A program made the position numbers and the translations under genes. Positions 480 to 9,450 of a stretch of 64,000 nucleotides of DNA are shown here, piece by piece. The notes below the pieces were generated by a model that saw only the letters and a program-made list of their open reading frames with translations, searched no databases and had not been told where the DNA came from. The stretch's first letter is position 1; the number at the start of each line of letters is the position of its first letter. This stretch comes from Zoogloea sp. (GTDB lineage Bacteria > Pseudomonadota > Gammaproteobacteria > Burkholderiales > Rhodocyclaceae): assembly GCF_009026175.1 (NCBI RefSeq), contig NZ_WBTZ01000002.1. The stretch is one strand, 5' to 3'.

Positions 480-1580
480 TCAGGCGGCGGCGAGTTCCTT
501 CTGACGGGCGGCCTCGAGCTCGCGGACCAGGGGGATGACGTGCTTGCCGAAATACTCGACCTCCTCCTGGAAATGCAGGAAGCCGGTGAGCACCAGGTCA
601 ACCCCGACGGCCTTCAGCGCGACGATGCGCTCGGCCACCTGGCGCGGCGTGCCGATGAGGTTGGTCTTGAAGCCGTCGTTGTACTGGACGAGATCCTCGA
701 AGCTGGATTTGGCCCAGTTGCCCTCCCCTTCCGGGCTGGCCTTGCCGGCCTGGGTCACCGCATCGCCGAAGGCGCGCACGGCTTCCGGATCAGCCTTGTC
801 GATGATCTCCTGCACCACTGCGCGGGCTTCCTCCTCGGTGTCGCGGACCACCACGAAGGCATTCACGCCGATCTTCACCTGGTGGTTGTTGCGCGCCGCC
901 TTGGTACGGATGTCATCCACCTGGGCCTTCACACCCTCGACGGTATTGCCATTGGTGAAATACCAGTCGGACACACGAGAAGCCATGTCGCGCGCCGCGC
1001 GGGAGCTGCCGCCCTGGAAGATCTCAGGGTGCGGCTTCTGCACGGGCTTGGGCTTGAGGGTGTAGTCGTGGAAGCGGTAGAAGTCGCCCTTCAAGGTGAA
1101 GTTGTCCTCGGTCCAGATGCCCTTGAGGGCCTGGATAAACTCCTCGGAGCGACGGTAGCGCTCGTCGTGTTCGAGCCACGGCTCACCGATTGCAGTGAAC
1201 TCGCCCTTGAACCAGCCACTCACGATGTTGACCGCGATCCGGCCCTTGGTGAGGTGGTCGATGGTCGCGATCTGCTTGGCCAGCACGGCCGGATGCCACG
1301 GCCCCGGCAGCACGGCCGCGATCACCTTGAGCTTGGTGGTGGCAGCCAGCAAGGCATGGGAAAAGGACACCGACTCGTGCTGGTATTCGGCACCGTAACC
1401 GGCCGTGAAGCGGATCTGCGACAGGGCGTAGTCGAAGCCCGCGTCTTCAGCGATCTGGGCCAGGCGGCGGTTGTAGTCGATGTCCCAGCTGGTGCGCTGT
1501 TCGATCTTGCTGACGACGAGGCCACCGCTGACGTTGGGAACCCAGTAGGCAAATTTGACGGGGTGGATGGATTGAGTCAT
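480..1580 (-). CDS. sfnG: Dimethylsulfone monooxygenase (luciferase-like, FMNH2-dependent)
   Basis: KFAYWVPNVSGGLVVSKIEQRTSW...ALSQIRFTAGYGAEYQHESVSFS signature; adjacent FMN reductase. Confidence 0.93.
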   Translation of the reverse strand: MTQSIHPVKFAYWVPNVSGGLVVSKIEQRTSWDIDYNRRLAQIAEDAGFDYALSQIRFTAGYGAEYQHESVSFSHALLAATTKLKVIAAVLPGPWHPAVLAKQIATIDHLTKGRIAVNIVSGWFKGEFTAIGEPWLEHDERYRRSEEFIQALKGIWTEDNFTLKGDFYRFHDYTLKPKPVQKPHPEIFQGGSSRAARDMASRVSDWYFTNGNTVEGVKAQVDDIRTKAARNNHQVKIGVNAFVVVRDTEEEARAVVQEIIDKADPEAVRAFGDAVTQAGKASPEGEGNWAKSSFEDLVQYNDGFKTNLIGTPRQVAERIVALKAVGVDLVLTGFLHFQEEVEYFGKHVIPLVRELEAARQKELAAA

Positions 1581-1622
1581 GGCGATTTACTCCCAGGCGA
1601 TAGGAAAAGTGAGCGTTTGAAT

Positions 1623-2198
1623 TCAGGCCGCGGCGCGGGTCTCGGCATCCCCGATCGCCTGGCGTTTCTGGATGAAGGGCAGCGCCCGGCGGGTGGCCAG
1701 CTCGATGCGGGCCTTGAGCAGTTCGCTGGACACCCGGTAGTTGCTGAAATCGGCTTCCGAGGCGTACACGCCGATGGGCAGGGTCAAGGCCTGGAAGAAG
1801 CTGAACAAGGGGCGGAATTGATGATCGATGACCAGGGCGTGGCGTTCGCTGCCGCCGGTCGCGGCAAACAGCACCGGCACATCGATGAGGGCCTCGTGAT
1901 GCACGAAGTCGAACAGGTGCTTGAACAGGCCGGTGAAGGTGGCCCGATAGACCGGACTACCGACCACCAGGAAGTCGGCGTTCTCGATGGCGCGGATATG
2001 GGCCGCGATATGCGGCGGGAGGTCGGCCGGATTGACCACGCTCCCGAGTTCGGCGGCGATGTCGGCGAGTTCGATCACATGCAGGTCGAACTGCACCTGC
2101 TGGCCCAGCGAGGCCACGATCTCGTCCACCAGGACGCGGGTACGGGAGGGCTTGTAAAGGCCGCCGGAGACGGCAACGATCTTGGGCTTATTGCTCAT
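1623..2198 (-). CDS. msuE: NAD(P)H-dependent FMN reductase, MsuE/SfnF subfamily
   Basis: VAVSGGLYKPSRT, VGSPVYRATFTGLFKHLFD and ATGGSERHAL motifs; start moved to ATG 2198 because the longer ORF start overlaps the promoter. Confidence 0.9.
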   Translation of the reverse strand: MSNKPKIVAVSGGLYKPSRTRVLVDEIVASLGQQVQFDLHVIELADIAAELGSVVNPADLPPHIAAHIRAIENADFLVVGSPVYRATFTGLFKHLFDFVHHEALIDVPVLFAATGGSERHALVIDHQFRPLFSFFQALTLPIGVYASEADFSNYRVSSELLKARIELATRRALPFIQKRQAIGDAETRAAA

Positions 2199-2268
2199 GG
2201 TGATTCTCCAGGGAATTGGTTTGCGGAGGATTTGAATTCGGCCGGTGGGGCGCGGGCAATTGATTGAT

Positions 2269-2284
2269 AGCAGCTTCCGTGCCA
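2269..2284 (-). promoter_or_regulatory. Sigma54 -24/-12 promoter for msuE-sfnG operon
   Basis: Minus strand TGGCACGGAAGCTGCT vs consensus TGGCAC-N5-TTGCW; 71 bp upstream of msuE ATG. Confidence 0.85.
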
Positions 2285-2431
2285 CGCCTTTATTTATCTC
2301 GTTAATTCACGAAAAGGCCGTTTTATTGCCAGAACATATGAATGAAACGGGGGATTCTTTTGAAATAAGGCTGCCTGACGGCCCTTTTTTCGATATGGCC
2401 CGGACGCCGGGAGGGGAGCTCGCCTTCAATC

Positions 2432-2577: not shown

Positions 2578-3261
2578 TCAGGCAAGATCGAGAAGCGCTT
2601 CACTGGGTGCGCGCTGGCGCGGGCGGGCCTCGAGTTGCTGGCGATATTCGATGAGCTGGGCGATGGTGATGATGGGAAGTGCGTGTTCCCTGGCAAAGCG
2701 CAGCAGGTCAGGACGGCGTGCCATGGCGCCATCGTCGCGGACGATCTCACACAGCACACCGCCGGGTCGAAGGCCGGCCAGGCTCACCAGATCGTGAGCC
2801 GCCTCGGTGTGCCCCGGACGCACCAACACCCCACCCTCCCGGGCGCGCAGCGGGAAGATGTGACCGGGGCGTGCAAAATCATCAGCCTCCACGGCGGGGT
2901 CGCTCAGCGCGCGCAGGGTGGCGGCGCGGTCGGCTGCAGAGATGCCGGTGGATGTGCCATGGCGATAGTCGACGGTGATGGTGAAGGCGGTACGGTGGGA
3001 TTCCGTGTTGTCGCGCACCATCAGGGGCAAGGCCAGGGCGTCGAGGCGCGCGCCCGGCAGGGCCACGCACACCACACCGCTGCTGTGGCGGACCAGGAAG
3101 GCCATTTGTTCCGGGGTGATCTTCTCCGCGGCGATGATGAGATCGCCCTCGTTCTCACGATGGGTGTCGTCCACCACGATGACGAACTGACCGGCACGAA
3201 TGGCCGCGATGGCGTCGCTTACGCGGCCGAAGCCGGCGGCGTGATCGATGATGTTCTGCAT
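2578..3261 (-). CDS. ribB: 3,4-dihydroxy-2-butanone 4-phosphate synthase
   Basis: DD..RENEGD, VCV, TGISAADR, RPGHIFPL, RPGHTEA and CE catalytic motifs all intact. Confidence 0.93.
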   Translation of the reverse strand: MQNIIDHAAGFGRVSDAIAAIRAGQFVIVVDDTHRENEGDLIIAAEKITPEQMAFLVRHSSGVVCVALPGARLDALALPLMVRDNTESHRTAFTITVDYRHGTSTGISAADRAATLRALSDPAVEADDFARPGHIFPLRAREGGVLVRPGHTEAAHDLVSLAGLRPGGVLCEIVRDDGAMARRPDLLRFAREHALPIITIAQLIEYRQQLEARPRQRAPSEALLDLA

Positions 3262-3275
3262 GATGAAAGTTGGGT

Positions 3276-4484
3276 TCAGGAGTAGAAGGAAGGTGTCGGA
3301 TGACTGCCGTTGAGCGCCCAGTCGCCAAGCTCGCGGACCTTGTAGGCCACCGGGTCGTGCAGGGAATGGGTCCGCAGGTTGCGCCAGTAGCGGTCAAAGC
3401 GCAGGGATGCCGTGGTGGCCCGGGCCCCTGCCACCTCGAACATGCGGCTGGTCAGGTCGAGCCCGACGCGGGTGGTCGCCACCTTGGCGCTTGCCACATG
3501 CACGGCCACCTCACCACGCTCCGCTTCCTTCAGATCCAGGTCGCGGACCCAGGCGGCATCCAGCGCGTGGGCTGCCCGGTCGGTCAGCAGGCGGGCCCCC
3601 TCCACGCCGACCCAGAACTCACCGTAGGTCGACAGCACGTAGGGATCCTTGCCCGCCGAGTCGACCCCGGCGGCGGGCCAGGCCCGGCTCTGGCCCAGGG
3701 TGTAGCGGCGGGCTTCCTCGAGGGCGCCCTCGGCGATCCCCAGGTAGATGTTGGAGAGGATCAGCTGGGCGATGAGCGGACGCAGGCAGGCGAAGGGAGA
3801 GCTGAGGGGGCCCGGCTCGGCCAGCACTTCGCTGCGGGCGATGCGCACCCGGTGGAAGGCGGCACTGCCGCTGTCGGTCTGGCGTTGCCCCATGTTGTCC
3901 CAGTCCGGGAAGAGCTCGATGCCGGCGCGGTCGGTGGGGAGTGCCGCGATGATCAGCTTGCCGCTTGCCGGGTCGACCCCGGAAGCGATCAACATGTCCG
4001 AATCAATCGCCCCGGAGCAAAAGCTCTTCCTGCCATCGAACTCGAATCCGCCGTCGTCCTGGCGTGTTGCCACGGTGCGGGTGTCCAGCGGATTGAGCGC
4101 ATTCCCCCAGAACCAGTCCTTCCCGGCAGTCTGCTCGAAGAGCGGGCGCCACTGGGACGGGTTGCCAAACAGGCGAATCGTGGCCAGCAGCAGGTGCTGA
4201 AAGGCAAAGACGTGGGCGACCGAGCTGTCTGCACGGGCAATCTCACGGACGATCTGCAAGGTATCGGCCCATGTCGCCCCAAGGCCGCCCAGTTCGCGCG
4301 GCACGATCAAGCCGAGCAGGCCGCTCTGGCGCAAGGCATCGCGTTCGGCCTTCGGGGTTCCACCGGTCTTGTCGCGCTCGACGGCGCTTTGAGCGAAGTG
4401 CTCGGCCAGTGCGCGGGCGATCGCCAGCGGGCTGGCGGCGGCACGGGCGTACTTCGCCTCCGGGACTTCTAGCAGGCTGTGCAT
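3276..4484 (-). CDS. Acyl-CoA dehydrogenase-fold flavin-dependent monooxygenase (DszC/SfnA-like)
   Basis: [42 protein letters not shown] and [14 protein letters not shown] motifs. Confidence 0.88.
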   Translation of the reverse strand: MHSLLEVPEAKYARAAASPLAIARALAEHFAQSAVERDKTGGTPKAERDALRQSGLLGLIVPRELGGLGATWADTLQIVREIARADSSVAHVFAFQHLLLATIRLFGNPSQWRPLFEQTAGKDWFWGNALNPLDTRTVATRQDDGGFEFDGRKSFCSGAIDSDMLIASGVDPASGKLIIAALPTDRAGIELFPDWDNMGQRQTDSGSAAFHRVRIARSEVLAEPGPLSSPFACLRPLIAQLILSNIYLGIAEGALEEARRYTLGQSRAWPAAGVDSAGKDPYVLSTYGEFWVGVEGARLLTDRAAHALDAAWVRDLDLKEAERGEVAVHVASAKVATTRVGLDLTSRMFEVAGARATTASLRFDRYWRNLRTHSLHDPVAYKVRELGDWALNGSHPTPSFYS

Positions 4485-4567: not shown

Positions 4568-4583
4568 AGCAGATTGCGTGCCA
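4568..4583 (-). promoter_or_regulatory. Sigma54 promoter for monooxygenase-ribB operon
   Basis: Minus strand TGGCACGCAATCTGCT; 84 bp upstream of ATG 4484. Confidence 0.85.
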
Positions 4584-4817: not shown

Positions 4818-4846
4818 GAACGTTGCTCCCGGGTACGTTTTGGGTA

Positions 4847-4862
4847 TGGCACGCTTTCTGCA
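4847..4862 (+). promoter_or_regulatory. Sigma54 promoter for monooxygenase-sfnR-ribB-like operon
   Basis: TGGCACGCTTTCTGCA. Confidence 0.85.
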
Positions 4863-4900
4863 GAGGGTCTCCGTGTCACCCTGATCGCGGAGCCTTTGCC

Positions 4901-6111
4901 TTGACCCAAGTCTTGAACACGCTGCTCGACCTGCCCGGCGGCACGGTTTCACCGGAACCTCCTGAGCAGATCGCCCGGCGCCTCGCCGAACAATTCGCTG
5001 CCACGGCGGCCGAGCGGGATAGCCTGGGCGGAACGCCCAAGGCGGAGCGGGATGCGCTGCGCCAGAGCGGGCTGCTGGCCCTGTCCATTCCAGTCGAGTA
5101 CGGTGGCCTGGGCGCAAACTGGCGCGAGACCCTGGATGTCGTGCGCATCCTGTCCAGCGCAGACAGCTCCATCGGACATGTCTTCGCCTTCCAGCATCTC
5201 ATGTTGGCAACGGTGAGGCTCTTTTCCCGGCCGAGCCAGTGGGAAGCCTGGTTCGAGCAGACGGCCCGCCACAACTGGTTCTGGGGGAATGCCGTCAATC
5301 CGCTGGACCGTCGCACCGTCAGCCGGAGCCAGGACGGCTGGTACGAGTTTTCCGGGAAGAAGAGCTTCTGCTCCGGTGCGCTCGATTCAGAGATGCTGGT
5401 TGTTTCAGCCTATGCCCAGGACACGCCGCAACAGCTCGTCATCGCCGCGGTGCCGACCGCCCGCAGCGGCATCAACGTGTTGCAGGACTGGGACAATTTC
5501 GGCCAGCGGCAGACCGACAGTGGCAGCGTGAATTTCGAAAGGGTGCGCATCGAGGAGAAGGAGATCCTCGCCGATCCGGGACCGCTGAGCACGCCCTTTG
5601 CCTGCCTGCGCCCGCTCATTGCGCAGCTCATCCTCACCAACATCTACGCCGGCATTGCCGAGGGTGCCTACACGGAGGCCCGTCGCTACAGCCTCCATGA
5701 GGCACGGCCCTGGCATCGCTCCCCGGCCAAGCGTTTCGAGGACGACCCCTATGTGCTGCATCACTACGGAGAGTTCTGGGCGGCGCTCGACGCGGTGCGG
5801 GTGATGACCAACCGGGCGGCGGACCTGCTTGACGCGGGCTGGAACAAGGGAGGGCGCCTGACCGAGGACGAGCGGGGAGACATTGCGCTGGCGATCTCCT
5901 CGGCCAAGGTGCTGGCGACGCGGACAGGGATGGACCTCTGTACGCGCATGTTCGAGGTGACGGGCGCACGTGCCACCCATGCCGGGCTGGGGCTCGACCG
6001 CTATTGGCGCAATCTGCGCACGCACACCATGCACGACCCGATCGATTACAAACTTCTGGAGCTAGGTGAATGGGCCTTGAAGCAACACTACCCGAAGCCG
6101 ACTTTCTACTC

Positions 6112-6115
<4 letters not shown>
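4901..6115 (+). CDS. Acyl-CoA dehydrogenase-fold flavin-dependent monooxygenase (DszC/SfnA-like), paralog of 3276-4484
   Basis: [33 protein letters not shown] and [14 protein letters not shown] motifs; TTG start at 4901 after GGAG, since the ORF-track start lies upstream of the promoter. Confidence 0.88.
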
Positions 6116-7272
<1,157 letters not shown>

Positions 7273-7324
7273 ATGGCCCGAAGCGGCCACTCTCTTGATA
7301 ACCCCCAGACATGAATGGTGCGAC

Positions 7325-7948
7325 ATGGTGACGCTATCCAGCCCCGCGCAATCCCGCCTTCCCGATCCTGGCGCGGCCCTCGCCGCCTACCGGGACGGAG
7401 CGGTGACCGTGCTTGCATCCGATCCGCTGCGTCCGGGCAGCGCCTGCCTGCTCGCTGCCCTGGAAACCCTGCGGCCTGAAACCCTGAGCCAGTTGCGGAG
7501 CCTGACCCGTGGGCTGATCAGCGTACTGCTGCCTGATCGTCAGAGGTATGGCGTCCGGCTCTTCCTGTCCTGTGAGGGCCAGGCGGCGGATCTCTCCAGC
7601 CATTCCGGCGCGGAGCCCGGCGTGGGCAGCAATGCCGCCCTGTGTCCTCTCCTGCATGGGCTTGTCTGCAATCCCTGCGAGGCGGAACGCCAGGCAGCAG
7701 CCTTCGGTGATCCCTTTGTCACCCTGAGTGGCGCCGGCACCCTGAGCTGGCCGGATAGCGAACGTGTGGTGAGTACGCTCGCCGTCCGCTTCGCTCTGGC
7801 CGACGCAGCCCTGATCTGTTCGCTGCACGATTCCCGGGGGCGCTGTCTCCACGGCGACGAAGTGAGTGAATTCGCAGCCGCCCACGGCCTCCCTCTTCTC
7901 TACCCTGACGATGTCCTCCGCGGTGTGCGCCTGCACGCAGCAGGGTAA
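7325..7948 (+). CDS. RibB (DHBP synthase)-fold protein lacking catalytic residues; probable pseudoenzyme
   Basis: Colinear with RibB 2578-3261 (ALAAYRDGAVTVL ~ AIAAIRAGQFVIV; ALICSLHDSRG...FAAAHGLPLL ~ VLCEIVRDDG...FAREHALPII), but RENEGD, GHTE and CE are absent; uninterrupted 207-aa ORF. Confidence 0.65.
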   Translation: MVTLSSPAQSRLPDPGAALAAYRDGAVTVLASDPLRPGSACLLAALETLRPETLSQLRSLTRGLISVLLPDRQRYGVRLFLSCEGQAADLSSHSGAEPGVGSNAALCPLLHGLVCNPCEAERQAAAFGDPFVTLSGAGTLSWPDSERVVSTLAVRFALADAALICSLHDSRGRCLHGDEVSEFAAAHGLPLLYPDDVLRGVRLHAAG

Positions 7949-8004
7949 GTGACTGCTCCTGCTGGTAACTCTCCTCCGCGCGGGGGGGACCCGGTCCTTT
8001 CATC

Positions 8005-8032
8005 AGGCGCCTGCTATGGCGCCTTTTTATTT
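8005..8032 (+). terminator. Rho-independent terminator
   Basis: AGGCGCC-TGCTAT-GGCGCCT followed by TTTTATTT. Confidence 0.75.
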
Positions 8033-8060
8033 GTTGAGAGTGCTTCCCCATGCCACGGGT

Positions 8061-8076
8061 TGCTGCCTCAAAAGCA
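8061..8076. promoter_or_regulatory. TGCT-N8-AGCA site
   Basis: TGCTGCCTCAAAAGCA, 80 bp upstream of the sigma54 promoter. Confidence 0.65.
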
Positions 8077-8156
8077 CTTGTCCAGCATGGGTGTGTCTGG
8101 GCCCGCAACAAGCACCGGATTCAGCAATATACAAAAGGGGATTTTGGCGAAAATCC

Positions 8157-8172
8157 TGGCCCGCTTTATGCT
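8157..8172 (+). promoter_or_regulatory. Sigma54 promoter for ABC operon 1
   Basis: TGGCCCGCTTTATGCT with correct GG/GC spacing. Confidence 0.7.
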
Positions 8173-8298
8173 TATTGAAGCTGAAGGGGTTCGGTAAATG
8201 AATTCCAGAATAGAAAGTCCGGAATGAAATGAAATTTCGAAAATGGAATTTCGAATAAGGATTTTCGTTTCGTTGCATATGAACAGGAATTGCCAAGA

Positions 8299-9450
8299 AT
8301 GCACACCTTGAACAAGGCCCTTTCCTCCAGCAATAGCCCCGACACGCTGCCGGCCCATTTGTGCGAGCAGGCGCGACTGCAGCCCCGGACTGTCGCCCTG
8401 CGCTTCAAACGGCTGGGCATCTGGCACGAGAAGCGCTGGCCGGATCTGCTCGCCGAGGTGGCAGGCGCAGCCGCGGCGCTGCAGACCGACGGTTTCGGCA
8501 ATGGAGACGTGCTGGCCTTGCTTGGCCAGCCCTCGCCCGAGGCCGTGGTCATGTTGCTGGCCGCCCAATGGCTGGGAGGTGTCGTTGCCCCCCTCGCTCT
8601 GGATGCCGAACCCGAGGCCCTGGCGTCGGCGCTCATCGGACTGCGGCCCTGCATCGCCTTTGGCGACGACCAGGAGCAGGTGGATCGCCTGCTGGCGGCG
8701 GGCTTCTCCGGCAAGAGGCTGATCTATGCCGATGCCCGCGGCCTGCATGCCTACCGGCAGACGGTGTTGGCCAGTTACGGTGAGTGGCTGGCAGCTGCGC
8801 CCGACGGGTCTGCGTACCCACACTGCGTGGCCCGGGATGTTGCGCTGCGCTACCACGTCGCAGGTGGGTGGGACGACGGGCCGGTGTGCCGCATCACCCA
8901 CGCCGAGATCCTGGACGGCGCCCGCCGGCTGATCGCGGCAAGCGGGCTGAACGTCGGTGAGGAGGCTTTCGCCGGGAGGCGTTTTGCGCCGGCGGGCGTG
9001 GTTCGCTACCTGCTCGCCCCCTGGTTGCTTGCAGGCTTCACCCTCAATATCGCCGAAAGCCCGGAGAGCCGCGATCCGGATCGACGGGAGATCGGCCCGA
9101 GCCTGATCCTCGGATCGGCCGAGACCTACGCCCGGCTGCGCAGCCGGATCCAGGCCCGTCTGCCGGCTTCCCGGGACGGTTGGCGCGGACGCCTGGTGTC
9201 TGCGGCGCTCCACTCCCGGAGTGGGCTTTTGGCGCGCATCCTGGTGCGGCGCCCCCTGGCCGAGGTGGCCGGGCTGGGCCGGGTGCGTCACGCCCTGGTG
9301 GTCGGCCCGGCGCCGGATGCCGACCTGACCGAGTTCTTTGCCCGTCTGGGCGTGAGCCTGAGACGCTGGCCGGACGCGGCCTGCCTGCCGCAGAACAGGC
9401 CGCCCGAGCATGATCTGGCCAGCCTCCTGAACGTATGGGTGGCGCCATGA
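8299..9450 (+). CDS. Truncated, degenerate long-chain acyl-CoA ligase-like (AMP-binding fold) protein
   Basis: N-terminus VALRFKRLGIWHEKRW and ESPESRDPDRREIGP are typical of ABC-associated ligases; the P-loop region reads YHVAGGWDDG instead of YTSGTTGxPKG; ends where the YGxTE motif should be; 383 aa. Confidence 0.75.
   Translation: MHTLNKALSSSNSPDTLPAHLCEQARLQPRTVALRFKRLGIWHEKRWPDLLAEVAGAAAALQTDGFGNGDVLALLGQPSPEAVVMLLAAQWLGGVVAPLALDAEPEALASALIGLRPCIAFGDDQEQVDRLLAAGFSGKRLIYADARGLHAYRQTVLASYGEWLAAAPDGSAYPHCVARDVALRYHVAGGWDDGPVCRITHAEILDGARRLIAASGLNVGEEAFAGRRFAPAGVVRYLLAPWLLAGFTLNIAESPESRDPDRREIGPSLILGSAETYARLRSRIQARLPASRDGWRGRLVSAALHSRSGLLARILVRRPLAEVAGLGRVRHALVVGPAPDADLTEFFARLGVSLRRWPDAACLPQNRPPEHDLASLLNVWVAP

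What the first reader, a model, noticed from the sequence alone, without database searches (positions are those of the whole stretch)
7325..7948. Catalytically dead RibB-fold protein encoded right after sfnR
Seen: a full-length (207 aa) uninterrupted ORF aligning end to end with the neighbouring RibB, yet every catalytic element is replaced. RENEGD becomes RPGSAC, the active-site Cys becomes Ser, TGISAADR becomes PGVGSNAA, RPGHTE is absent and CE becomes CS. Loss of all sites with an intact frame suggests repurposing rather than decay. Inference: a pseudoenzyme that may heterodimerise with RibB, sense a metabolite, or supply in trans the regulatory input that sensor-less SfnR lacks.
Basis: partly seen in the sequence, partly recalled or inferred. 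Interest (0 to 1): 0.65.

Follow-up and report, generated by a model that had tools for sequence, protein, structure and literature searches.

The report
Orphaned dead RibB domain, kept by selection
The gene after sfnR encodes a riboflavin-enzyme (RibB) fold that has lost every catalytic residue. It is the surviving front half of a two-domain GTP cyclohydrolase II found intact in sister Zoogloea species, and selection still preserves it although its job is unknown.

Summary
Window 7325-7948 (+) is an intact 207-aa ORF that aligns almost end to end with the neighbouring RibB (23% identity). It just passes the Pfam DHBP_synthase cut-off, and two AlphaFold models match only DHBP synthase structures. 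All known catalytic elements are replaced.

In four other Zoogloea genomes and two metagenome contigs, the gene at this position is about 400 aa. It has the same dead RibB-like domain fused to an intact GTP cyclohydrolase II (RibA) domain. In this genome and three metagenome lineages the cyclohydrolase half is cleanly gone.

The orphaned domain is not decaying. ML omega is 0.14 over dS of about 1 (LRT against omega=1: 2dlnL 169), and 0.05-0.08 in its N- and C-terminal segments. That is no weaker than in the fused orthologues (0.12). The domain therefore has a role that does not depend on the cyclohydrolase.

The gene ends a sigma54-driven sfnB-sfnR operon inside a dimethylsulfone (sfn) regulon. 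All enzymes in that regulon are flavin-dependent, and it carries an extra live ribB. The likeliest role is a non-catalytic protein-binding module, with RibB or SfnR as candidate partners, but this is untested. The family occurs only in Zoogloea. Interest is moderate.

The parts
7325..7948 (+). dRibB: 207-aa catalytically dead DHBP-synthase-fold protein, the orphaned N-terminal domain of a RibB*-GCHII protein
   Evidence: orthologues
7364..7570 (+). Conserved N-terminal segment (residues 14-82), including RPGSAC in place of the acidic loop RENEGD and Ser66 in place of the active-site Cys; omega 0.084
7571..7699 (+). Hypervariable middle (residues 83-125) with in-frame indels between lineages and low pLDDT at 86-98; corresponds to the RibB loop-4 'lid' region; omega 0.32
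7700..7915 (+). Conserved C-terminal segment (residues 126-197): FGDPF in place of RPGHIF, SWPDSE in place of RPGHTE, ICS in place of CE; omega 0.052
7307..7327 (+). Conserved start region GACATGAATGGTGCGACATG, with an SD-like GGTG (GGAG in L021) a few bases before the ATG
8005..8034 (+). Intrinsic terminator-like hairpin (AGGCGCC..GGCGCCT) plus T-run, 57 nt after the stop; hairpin conserved in L025 and L023; ends the sfnB2-sfnR-dRibB operon
6070..7272 (+). SfnR-like sigma54 activator (AAA+ domain from residue ~71, no N-terminal sensor domain), 52 nt upstream of dRibB
4901..6115 (+). sfnB2: DszC/SfnB-like flavin-dependent oxidoreductase, first gene of the operon
4847..4861 (+). Sigma54-type promoter TGGCACGCTTTCTGC for sfnB2-sfnR-dRibB
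4569..4583 (-). Divergent sigma54-type promoter for sfnB1-ribB
3276..4484 (-). sfnB1: DszC/SfnB-like oxidoreductase
2578..3261 (-). Live, extra RibB (DHBP synthase, 288.8 bits, all motifs present); the second DHBP synthase gene in the genome, after the housekeeping ribBA/BX-type gene on contig C293
480..2198 (-). SfnG dimethylsulfone monooxygenase (480-1580) and MsuE-type FMN reductase (1623-2198): the flavin-dependent core of the regulon

Best explanation
Shown: dRibB is a DHBP-synthase-fold protein without any of the catalytic residues. It is orthologous to the N-terminal domain of a ~400-aa Zoogloea protein whose C-terminal half is a bona fide GTP cyclohydrolase II. In the lineage of this genome the cyclohydrolase half was removed at the domain boundary in what looks like a single event. 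The orphaned domain has since stayed open and under purifying selection as strong as in the fused orthologues. It is the last gene of a sigma54-type sfnB2-sfnR operon inside a dimethylsulfone (sfn) sulfur-scavenging regulon. All enzymes of that regulon need FMN/FMNH2, and it carries an extra live ribB.

Inferred: the ancestral cluster boosted both entry steps of riboflavin synthesis (RibB plus RibA) when the flavin-dependent sfn enzymes are induced. The B domain of the fused protein became redundant and lost catalysis. Because constraint did not relax after the cyclohydrolase was lost, the domain must have a non-enzymatic role of its own.

I commit to a non-catalytic protein-binding module that uses the DHBPS dimer architecture. 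My odds for the partner are: the co-regulated RibB about 30% (tuning or tethering it), SfnR about 15%, and itself or another partner for the rest.
For: Fold and homology.
Catalytic residues are replaced in all 8 aligned orthologues. V. cholerae DHBPS loses activity when Glu39, Glu41 or His154 is mutated (PMC5228156).
Full-length orthologues score 202-213 bits on Pfam GCHII and pass TIGR00505 (214 vs 206). Their N-domain scores only 22-45 bits on PF00926. NCBI names them 'GTP cyclohydrolase II'.
No GCHII remnant exists in window 7000-8600 or elsewhere as a relocated half.
The truncated form appears in four independent assemblies with identical synteny. The truncated and full-length forms fall on opposite sides of one split in the tree.
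Selection: NG86 omega is 0.14-0.21 at dS 0.9-1.3. ML omega is 0.143 (2dlnL=168.7 against omega=1), 0.084 and 0.052 in the end segments, 0.119 in the full-length N-domain and 0.055 in GCHII.
Operon: sigma54 promoter at 4847, 52-nt gap after sfnR, conserved start region, terminator at 8005.
Regulon: SfnG, MsuE-type FMN reductase, two DszC/SfnB-like genes, extra ribB.
Against: The family is tiny: 10 lineages, one genus. The omega estimates therefore rest on 4-taxon sets with dS near saturation.
The gene evolves 4-5 times faster at non-synonymous sites than sfnR or livH. Its GC3 (0.73) is lower than its neighbours', which fits low expression.
A RibB:dRibB heterodimer would put the degenerate loop-4 over RibB's active site. 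That loop is proposed to act as a lid in real DHBPS (PMC5228156). Pairing would then be inhibitory, which is odd for two co-induced genes.
The AF2 models are of middling confidence (pLDDT 75 and 68, TM ~0.55).
Confidence: 0.6

Rival explanations
1. Trans-acting modulator of SfnR. SfnR lacks a sensor domain and appears to drive its own sigma54 operon. A co-transcribed binding protein would damp or gate it, as PspA does for PspF and HrpV for HrpS.
For: The gene is always the one immediately after this sfnR orthologue, in the same operon, in all 10 lineages. It is absent next to the paralogous sfnR genes of the genus. SfnR has only ~70 residues before its AAA+ domain. Constraint on the domain is independent of the fused cyclohydrolase.
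Against: Adjacency is the only evidence. In most lineages the same polypeptide is a working-looking metabolic enzyme (GCHII), which points to flavin supply rather than regulation. There is no homology to any known bEBP modulator. Pseudomonas SfnR is controlled at the level of its own transcription by CysB (Endoh et al. 2003, cited in PMC8234197), so no trans sensor is required.
Confidence: 0.15
2. Functionless remnant: a leftover gene fragment still open only because too little time has passed or because of selection unrelated to the protein.
For: It is a truncation product. It is fast-evolving compared with its neighbours, has a hypervariable middle with indels, low GC3, a weak SD, and is restricted to a few close lineages.
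Against: The frame is open in four lineages separated by dS of about 1. Omega is 0.14, and 0.05-0.08 in the terminal segments, so omega=1 is rejected (2dlnL 168.7). All indels are in frame. The start region is conserved in all four truncated lineages, and the terminator hairpin in G000, L025 and L023.
Confidence: 0.1
3. Still an enzyme: the DHBPS scaffold has acquired a different catalytic or small-molecule-binding activity, for example through the invariant Cys41/Ser66/Ser166/Asp160 set in the old active site.
For: A family-specific motif set replaces the old one and is invariant in 8 orthologues: C41, S66, W142-P143, D160, C165-S166, D169, R173.
Against: Most invariant positions are Gly/Ala/Leu/Pro core residues. 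The loops that close the active site are hypervariable and poorly modelled. The metal ligands and the phosphate-binding Arg/His/Thr are gone.
Confidence: 0.07

Closest known systems
Arabidopsis RIBA3 (bipartite RIBA protein with inactive DHBPS domain and active GTP cyclohydrolase II; Hiltunen et al. 2012, PMC3509567)
   Same: The full-length Zoogloea orthologues have the same architecture and the same pattern: DHBPS domain lacking residues needed for substrate binding and catalysis, GCHII domain intact.
   Different: It is of independent bacterial origin and sits in a sulfur-scavenging regulon. In the window's lineage the live GCHII half has been deleted, leaving the dead domain as a stand-alone, selected protein. 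I found no description of such a state in the papers I searched.
RibBX of Proteobacteria (live DHBPS fused to a dead GCHII-like domain; A. baumannii PDB 6mnz; discussed in PMC10012899)
   Same: It is a RibBA-derived protein in which one of the two domains has become a conserved pseudoenzyme. 6mnz is among the fold hits.
   Different: The polarity is the mirror image: here the DHBPS half is dead and the GCHII half was live. RibBX keeps both domains fused.
Canonical RibB / DHBP synthase (PF00926, TIGR00506; e.g. V. cholerae 4p77, E. coli 1g57)
   Same: It has the same fold, length and secondary-structure order, and aligns end to end.
   Different: It has no acidic loop Glu residues, no His154/His136 equivalents, and no catalytic Cys or Glu. 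It fails the NCBIfam cut-off by 150 bits.
lux-rib operons of Photobacterium (riboflavin genes co-transcribed with FMNH2-dependent luciferase; from my own knowledge, not checked here)
   Same: Extra rib genes are embedded in and co-regulated with a set of FMNH2-dependent luciferase-family enzymes. Here those are SfnG, an MsuE-type reductase and DszC-like proteins.
   Different: The regulon differs (sulfur scavenging, sigma54/SfnR). Only the two entry enzymes are duplicated, and one of them carries, or is reduced to, a dead domain.
PspA-PspF / HrpV-HrpS type trans-regulation of sensor-less sigma54 activators (from my own knowledge)
   Same: A sensor-less bEBP is co-transcribed with a small non-enzymatic protein.
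   Different: There is no homology and no interaction evidence. This is an analogy only.

Membership tests
DHBP synthase (RibB; PF00926 / TIGR00506) | DHBPS fold | tested here: met
   The AF2 models (pLDDT 75 and 68) each match 46 DHBPS chains at E<=1e-4, TM ~0.55, and no other fold. The second model used only family members in its alignment.
DHBP synthase (RibB; PF00926 / TIGR00506) | Sequence-profile membership above curated cut-offs | tested here: inconclusive
   Pfam gives 27.5 bits against a cut-off of 26.4, so it barely passes. NCBIfam TIGR00506 gives 26.9 against 177.45, so it fails.
DHBP synthase (RibB; PF00926 / TIGR00506) | Acidic loop RENEGD with the catalytic, metal-binding Glu residues (V. 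cholerae Glu39, Glu41) | tested here: not met
   RPGSAC here, and R(Q/P)G(G)GAC or RGGGAC in the orthologues. Residue roles are from PMC5228156.
DHBP synthase (RibB; PF00926 / TIGR00506) | R-x-G-H-T-E motif (His154) and RPGH motif (second His) | tested here: not met
   WPDSER and FGDPF at the aligned positions.
DHBP synthase (RibB; PF00926 / TIGR00506) | Active-site Cys and catalytic Glu of the C-E motif | tested here: not met
   Cys becomes Ser66; CE becomes C165-S166.
DHBP synthase (RibB; PF00926 / TIGR00506) | Converts ribulose 5-phosphate to DHBP and formate | not testable with these tools
   Needs an enzyme assay or complementation of a ribB mutant.
RibBA-type bipartite protein with dead DHBPS and live GCHII (AtRIBA3-like) | C-terminal GTP cyclohydrolase II domain fused to the DHBPS-like domain | tested here: not met
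   It is absent from the window gene, and no remnant exists in 7000-8600. It is present in the orthologues of G021, G044, G013, G019, L063 and L064.
RibBA-type bipartite protein with dead DHBPS and live GCHII (AtRIBA3-like) | Orthology of the N-terminal domain to such proteins | tested here: met
   48-57% identity in the same syntenic slot between sfnR and the half-ligase/liv operon.
RibBX | Catalytically intact DHBPS domain with degenerate GCHII-like domain | tested here: not met
   The DHBPS domain is the degenerate one, and there is no GCHII-like domain.
Trans-acting modulators of sensor-less sigma54 activators (PspA/HrpV-like, by function) | Co-transcription with the activator gene | tested here: inconclusive
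   Same strand, 52-nt gap, no terminator between them, terminator after.
Trans-acting modulators of sensor-less sigma54 activators (PspA/HrpV-like, by function) | Physical binding to the AAA+ activator and change of its output | not testable with these tools
   Needs two-hybrid or pull-down assays and reporter assays.

The most novel reading that the evidence does not exclude
The dead DHBPS domain acquired a regulatory role while still fused to GCHII, and in this lineage has been freed as a stand-alone regulator. It binds the sensor-less sigma54 activator SfnR, or RibB, possibly reading a thiol/sulfur or flavin-precursor signal through the invariant Cys41 that replaced the last Asp of the acidic loop. 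It would thereby couple flavin supply to expression of the flavin-dependent sulfur-scavenging enzymes. That would be the first function assigned to a DHBPS pseudoenzyme, and a new kind of trans-input to a bacterial enhancer-binding protein.
Probability: 0.12. Interest if true: 0.7.

Novelty: new variant of a known kind. Interest (0 to 1): 0.36.

Why it matters
Dead halves of RibBA proteins are known (AtRIBA3, RibBX), but nobody knows what they are kept for. Here a deletion has removed the live half, and the dead half stays under undiminished purifying selection. That is unusually clean evolutionary evidence that a DHBPS pseudoenzyme domain has a function of its own. It also yields a small, stand-alone protein on which to find that function.

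The locus also shows riboflavin entry enzymes wired into a sigma54/SfnR organosulfur regulon. This is a plausible case of cofactor supply being co-regulated with cofactor demand. The scope is narrow: one wastewater genus and ten lineages.

Tried and rejected
1. I searched for a decayed GCHII remnant downstream of the stop, using tblastn of three full-length orthologues against window 7000-8600 at E up to 100. Only noise came back. MAFFT placed the C-terminal tail LRGVRLHAAG against a late GCHII segment. The matching tblastn hit had E=45, so I do not accept it. An equally weak match to the start of the GCHII domain (GLRVAHVAS) is possible. The exact deletion junction is therefore unresolved.

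2. I asked whether the missing GCHII half sits elsewhere in the genome. The fragment at contig C36:3-203 is only 33% identical. Together with the end of contig C3 it looks like the housekeeping ribA split by the assembly.

3. blastn of the 3' end plus the intergenic region against the full-length loci found no nucleotide-level match.

4. GC3 as a coding-frame test was uninformative: 0.73 in the sense frame against 0.76 in the antisense frame.

5. The weak Pfam zf-nanos hit on the CxxxxxxxCxxC stretch is not conserved in L021 or L023, so I rejected it.

7. Wider homologues were sought with the word-index search, the exhaustive 1.84-billion-protein profile search, and the genome and metagenome scans. 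They found nothing outside Zoogloea except ordinary RibBA at E~1e-3.

8. A programmed frameshift fusing SfnR to dRibB was considered. The open frame reaches 31 nt into sfnR here but does not in G021, so I rejected it.

Full report
**1. What is there**

Window 7325-7948 (+) is an uninterrupted 207-codon ORF starting 52 nt after the stop of a sigma54-type activator gene (6070-7272).
- BLASTP against the RibB encoded 4 kb upstream on the other strand (2578-3261) aligns residues 18-192 with 17-198 at 23% identity, E=5e-6.
- Pfam DHBP_synthase scores 27.5 bits against a cut-off of 26.4; the real RibB scores 288.8 bits.
- NCBIfam ribB scores 26.9 bits against a cut-off of 177.
- A profile of the protein and its closest relatives hits only DHBP synthases in the PDB, the best end to end (3h07, E=7e-5).
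- An AlphaFold2 model built with an alignment that included true RibBs has pLDDT 75 and pTM 0.75. A control model built from the eight family members alone has pLDDT 68. Each returns 46 DHBP synthase chains at E<=1e-4 (TM about 0.55), followed by noise.

The fold assignment therefore does not depend on having fed RibB sequences to the predictor.

**2. The catalytic inventory**

The alignments show these replacements:

| RibB element | dRibB |
|---|---|
| acidic loop RENEGD | RPGSAC |
| active-site Cys (VVCVAL) | Ser (LISVLL) |
| RPGH(I/V)F | FGDPF |
| RPGHTE | WPDSER |
| CE | CS |

- For V. cholerae DHBPS, Glu39, Glu41 and His154 are the residues whose mutation abolishes activity. Loop-4 of one monomer (Thr107-Asp114) is proposed to act as a lid over the other monomer's active site (PMC5228156).
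- In dRibB the loop-4 region falls in a hypervariable stretch with in-frame indels and pLDDT below 50 (residues 86-98).
Two corrections apply. RPGHTE is replaced in register rather than absent. The TGISAADR equivalence depends on the aligner.

**3.

Homologues are very rare.
- The word-index search found only three close ones, all about 208-213 aa.
- The exhaustive profile search of 1.84 billion representatives found, apart from one repetitive 2,192-aa match that I take for noise, one 406-aa relative and then an ordinary RibBA at E=8e-4.
- Whole-genome searches of the genus found orthologues in four other genomes: G021, G044, G013 and G019. The record titles identify them as Zoogloea, including isolate LCSB751.
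- Two more full-length copies occur in JGI metagenomes.

In all six of these the gene is about 400 aa. It has the same degenerate RibB-like domain (PF00926, only 22-45 bits) fused to a GTP cyclohydrolase II domain. That domain scores 202-213 bits and passes the TIGR00505 ribA cut-off. It keeps the HSECLTGD...RCDCG zinc motif and the Tyr of RAYALQ. NCBI calls these proteins 'GTP cyclohydrolase II'.

Synteny is complete in every lineage: ribB<-sfnB1 | sfnB2->sfnR->X->half-ligase->livGHM-SBP.

In the window's genome and in three metagenome lineages (L025 at 94% identity, L021 and L023 at about 72%), the gene stops at about 207-213 aa, just where the cyclohydrolase domain would begin.
- No remnant of the cyclohydrolase survives downstream or elsewhere in the genome.
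- The intergenic spacer to the next operon has the usual length.
- The truncated lineages are each other's closest relatives by their neighbouring genes (sfnR 93-99% identical, against 80-85% to the full-length set). They lie on one side of a single split in the domain tree.

A single deletion in their common ancestor is therefore the simplest reading. The catalytic residues are already replaced in all full-length orthologues, so the domain died before it was orphaned.

**4. Decay or retention**

Pairwise Nei-Gojobori estimates within the truncated clade give omega 0.14-0.21 at dS 0.9-1.3. In the same pairs, sfnR gives 0.03-0.08, livG 0.08-0.12 and the neighbouring half-ligase 0.19-0.25.

Maximum-likelihood omega (GY+F3X4):

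| Data set | omega | 2dlnL against omega=1 |
|---|---|---|
| truncated clade, whole gene | 0.143 | 168.7 |
| residues 14-82 | 0.084 | |
| variable middle (83-125) | 0.32 | 11.9 |
| residues 126-197 | 0.052 | |
| N-domain of the full-length clade | 0.119 | |
| GCHII domain of the full-length clade | 0.055 | |

- All length differences are in frame.
- The start region is conserved within the truncated clade, and the terminator hairpin in three of its four lineages (G000, L025, L023).

The orphaned domain is thus under purifying selection no weaker than when it was fused. The constraint on it cannot come from supporting the attached cyclohydrolase.

Caveats: these are four-taxon data sets and dS is near saturation. 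The gene's non-synonymous rate is still four to five times that of sfnR.

**5. Context**

- Sigma54-type promoters (TGGCAC-N5-cTGC) lie at 4847 (+), ahead of sfnB2-sfnR-dRibB, and at 4569 (-), ahead of sfnB1-ribB.
- A hairpin with a T-run at 8005-8034 follows dRibB.
- The next operon has its own sigma54-like element near 8158 (read directly from the sequence).
- The left end of the window encodes SfnG (TIGR04021, 642 bits) and an MsuE-type FMN reductase (249 bits).
- The two acyl-CoA-dehydrogenase-fold genes are closest to DszC/SfnB.

Every enzyme here is flavin-dependent. The genome has a separate ribA and a RibBA/RibBX-type gene elsewhere, so the cluster's ribB is an extra copy.

Only five of 33 genomes of the genus carry this sfnR orthologue, and each of the five has gene X after it. 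The paralogous sfnR loci have none.

**6. How it most likely works**

Shown:
- the fold;
- loss of all catalytic residues;
- orthology to the N-domain of a GCHII protein;
- clean loss of the GCHII half;
- sustained purifying selection;
- placement at the end of the sfnR operon in a flavin-hungry regulon.

Inferred: the ancestral cluster raised flux into both branches of riboflavin synthesis (RibB and RibA) together with the sfn enzymes. This resembles rib genes riding on lux operons (my own knowledge). With a stand-alone RibB present, the B domain of the fused protein lost catalysis but acquired, or kept, a non-enzymatic role. That role persisted when the cyclohydrolase half became dispensable, because a housekeeping ribA exists.

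I take the role to be protein binding through the DHBPS dimer architecture. Odds for the partner:
- The co-regulated RibB is the most natural partner (about 30%). The degenerate lid loop predicts that such a heterodimer would lower rather than raise RibB activity.
- SfnR is the alternative (about 15%), by analogy with PspA/PspF.
- A residual chance (about 10%) remains that the protein has no function.
- A new small-molecule activity seems unlikely (about 7%). The invariant positions are mostly core Gly/Ala/Leu/Pro, and the phosphate- and metal-binding residues are gone.

**7. Comparison with what is known**

- The full-length Zoogloea proteins match Arabidopsis RIBA3, a bipartite protein with an inactive DHBPS and an active GCHII (PMC3509567).
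- They mirror proteobacterial RibBX, which has a live DHBPS and a dead GCHII-like domain (PDB 6mnz among the fold hits).
- The window's protein fails the membership tests for a working RibB (catalytic residues, NCBIfam cut-off), for a RibBA-type protein (no GCHII domain) and for RibBX.
- I found no description of a stand-alone, selected DHBPS pseudoenzyme, or of rib genes in an SfnR regulon, in the searched literature. That absence is limited to the open-access library.

**8. Verdict**

This is a new variant of a known kind, restricted to a few Zoogloea lineages. Its main value is as a natural domain-deletion experiment showing that a dead DHBPS domain is kept for its own sake. Interest is moderate.

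Noticed in passing
window 480-2285 (-): SfnG dimethylsulfone monooxygenase (TIGR04021, 642 bits) and an MsuE-type FMN reductase (TIGR03566, 249 bits) lie behind a sigma54-type promoter at 2270-2284. The left end of the window is therefore a complete DMSO2-utilisation regulon.
   Followed up: partly
window 2578-3261 (-): A fully canonical extra ribB is co-transcribed with a DszC/SfnB-like gene from a sigma54 promoter. Riboflavin entry enzymes wired into a sulfur-scavenging regulon did not turn up in my literature searches.
   Followed up: partly
window 4823-4901 and 6070-6115: The longest-ORF start of sfnB2 (TTG 4823) overlaps the sigma54 promoter at 4847-4861. The real start is probably ATG 4901, giving 404 aa as called in L025. 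sfnB2 and sfnR overlap by 46 nt, and this overlap is conserved in L025.
   Followed up: no
window 8299-9450 (+): The neighbouring truncated acyl-CoA-ligase-like gene evolves about as fast as dRibB (omega 0.19-0.25; only 50-57% identical to the orthologues in the full-length group). The flanking liv genes are 81-91% identical. There are thus two fast-evolving pseudoenzyme-like genes side by side.
   Followed up: partly
genome contigs C3:2902-3396 and C36:3-203: The housekeeping ribA appears split across two contig ends of the assembly. C293 carries a RibBA/RibBX-type gene whose GCHII-like half is only 25% identical to the Zoogloea sfn-linked GCHII.
   Followed up: partly
L015:6661-7941 (-) (Zoogloea MAG XM6, G019): This full-length orthologue carries a C-terminal extension of about 30 aa after the GCHII domain and has the most divergent N-domain, with WPETDQ instead of WPDSE.
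   Followed up: no
window 7334-7936 (-): A 200-codon antisense ORF mirrors dRibB almost exactly. Its GC3 (0.76) is no lower than that of the sense frame (0.73), so GC3 cannot pick the coding frame here. The sense frame is chosen on homology.
   Followed up: yes
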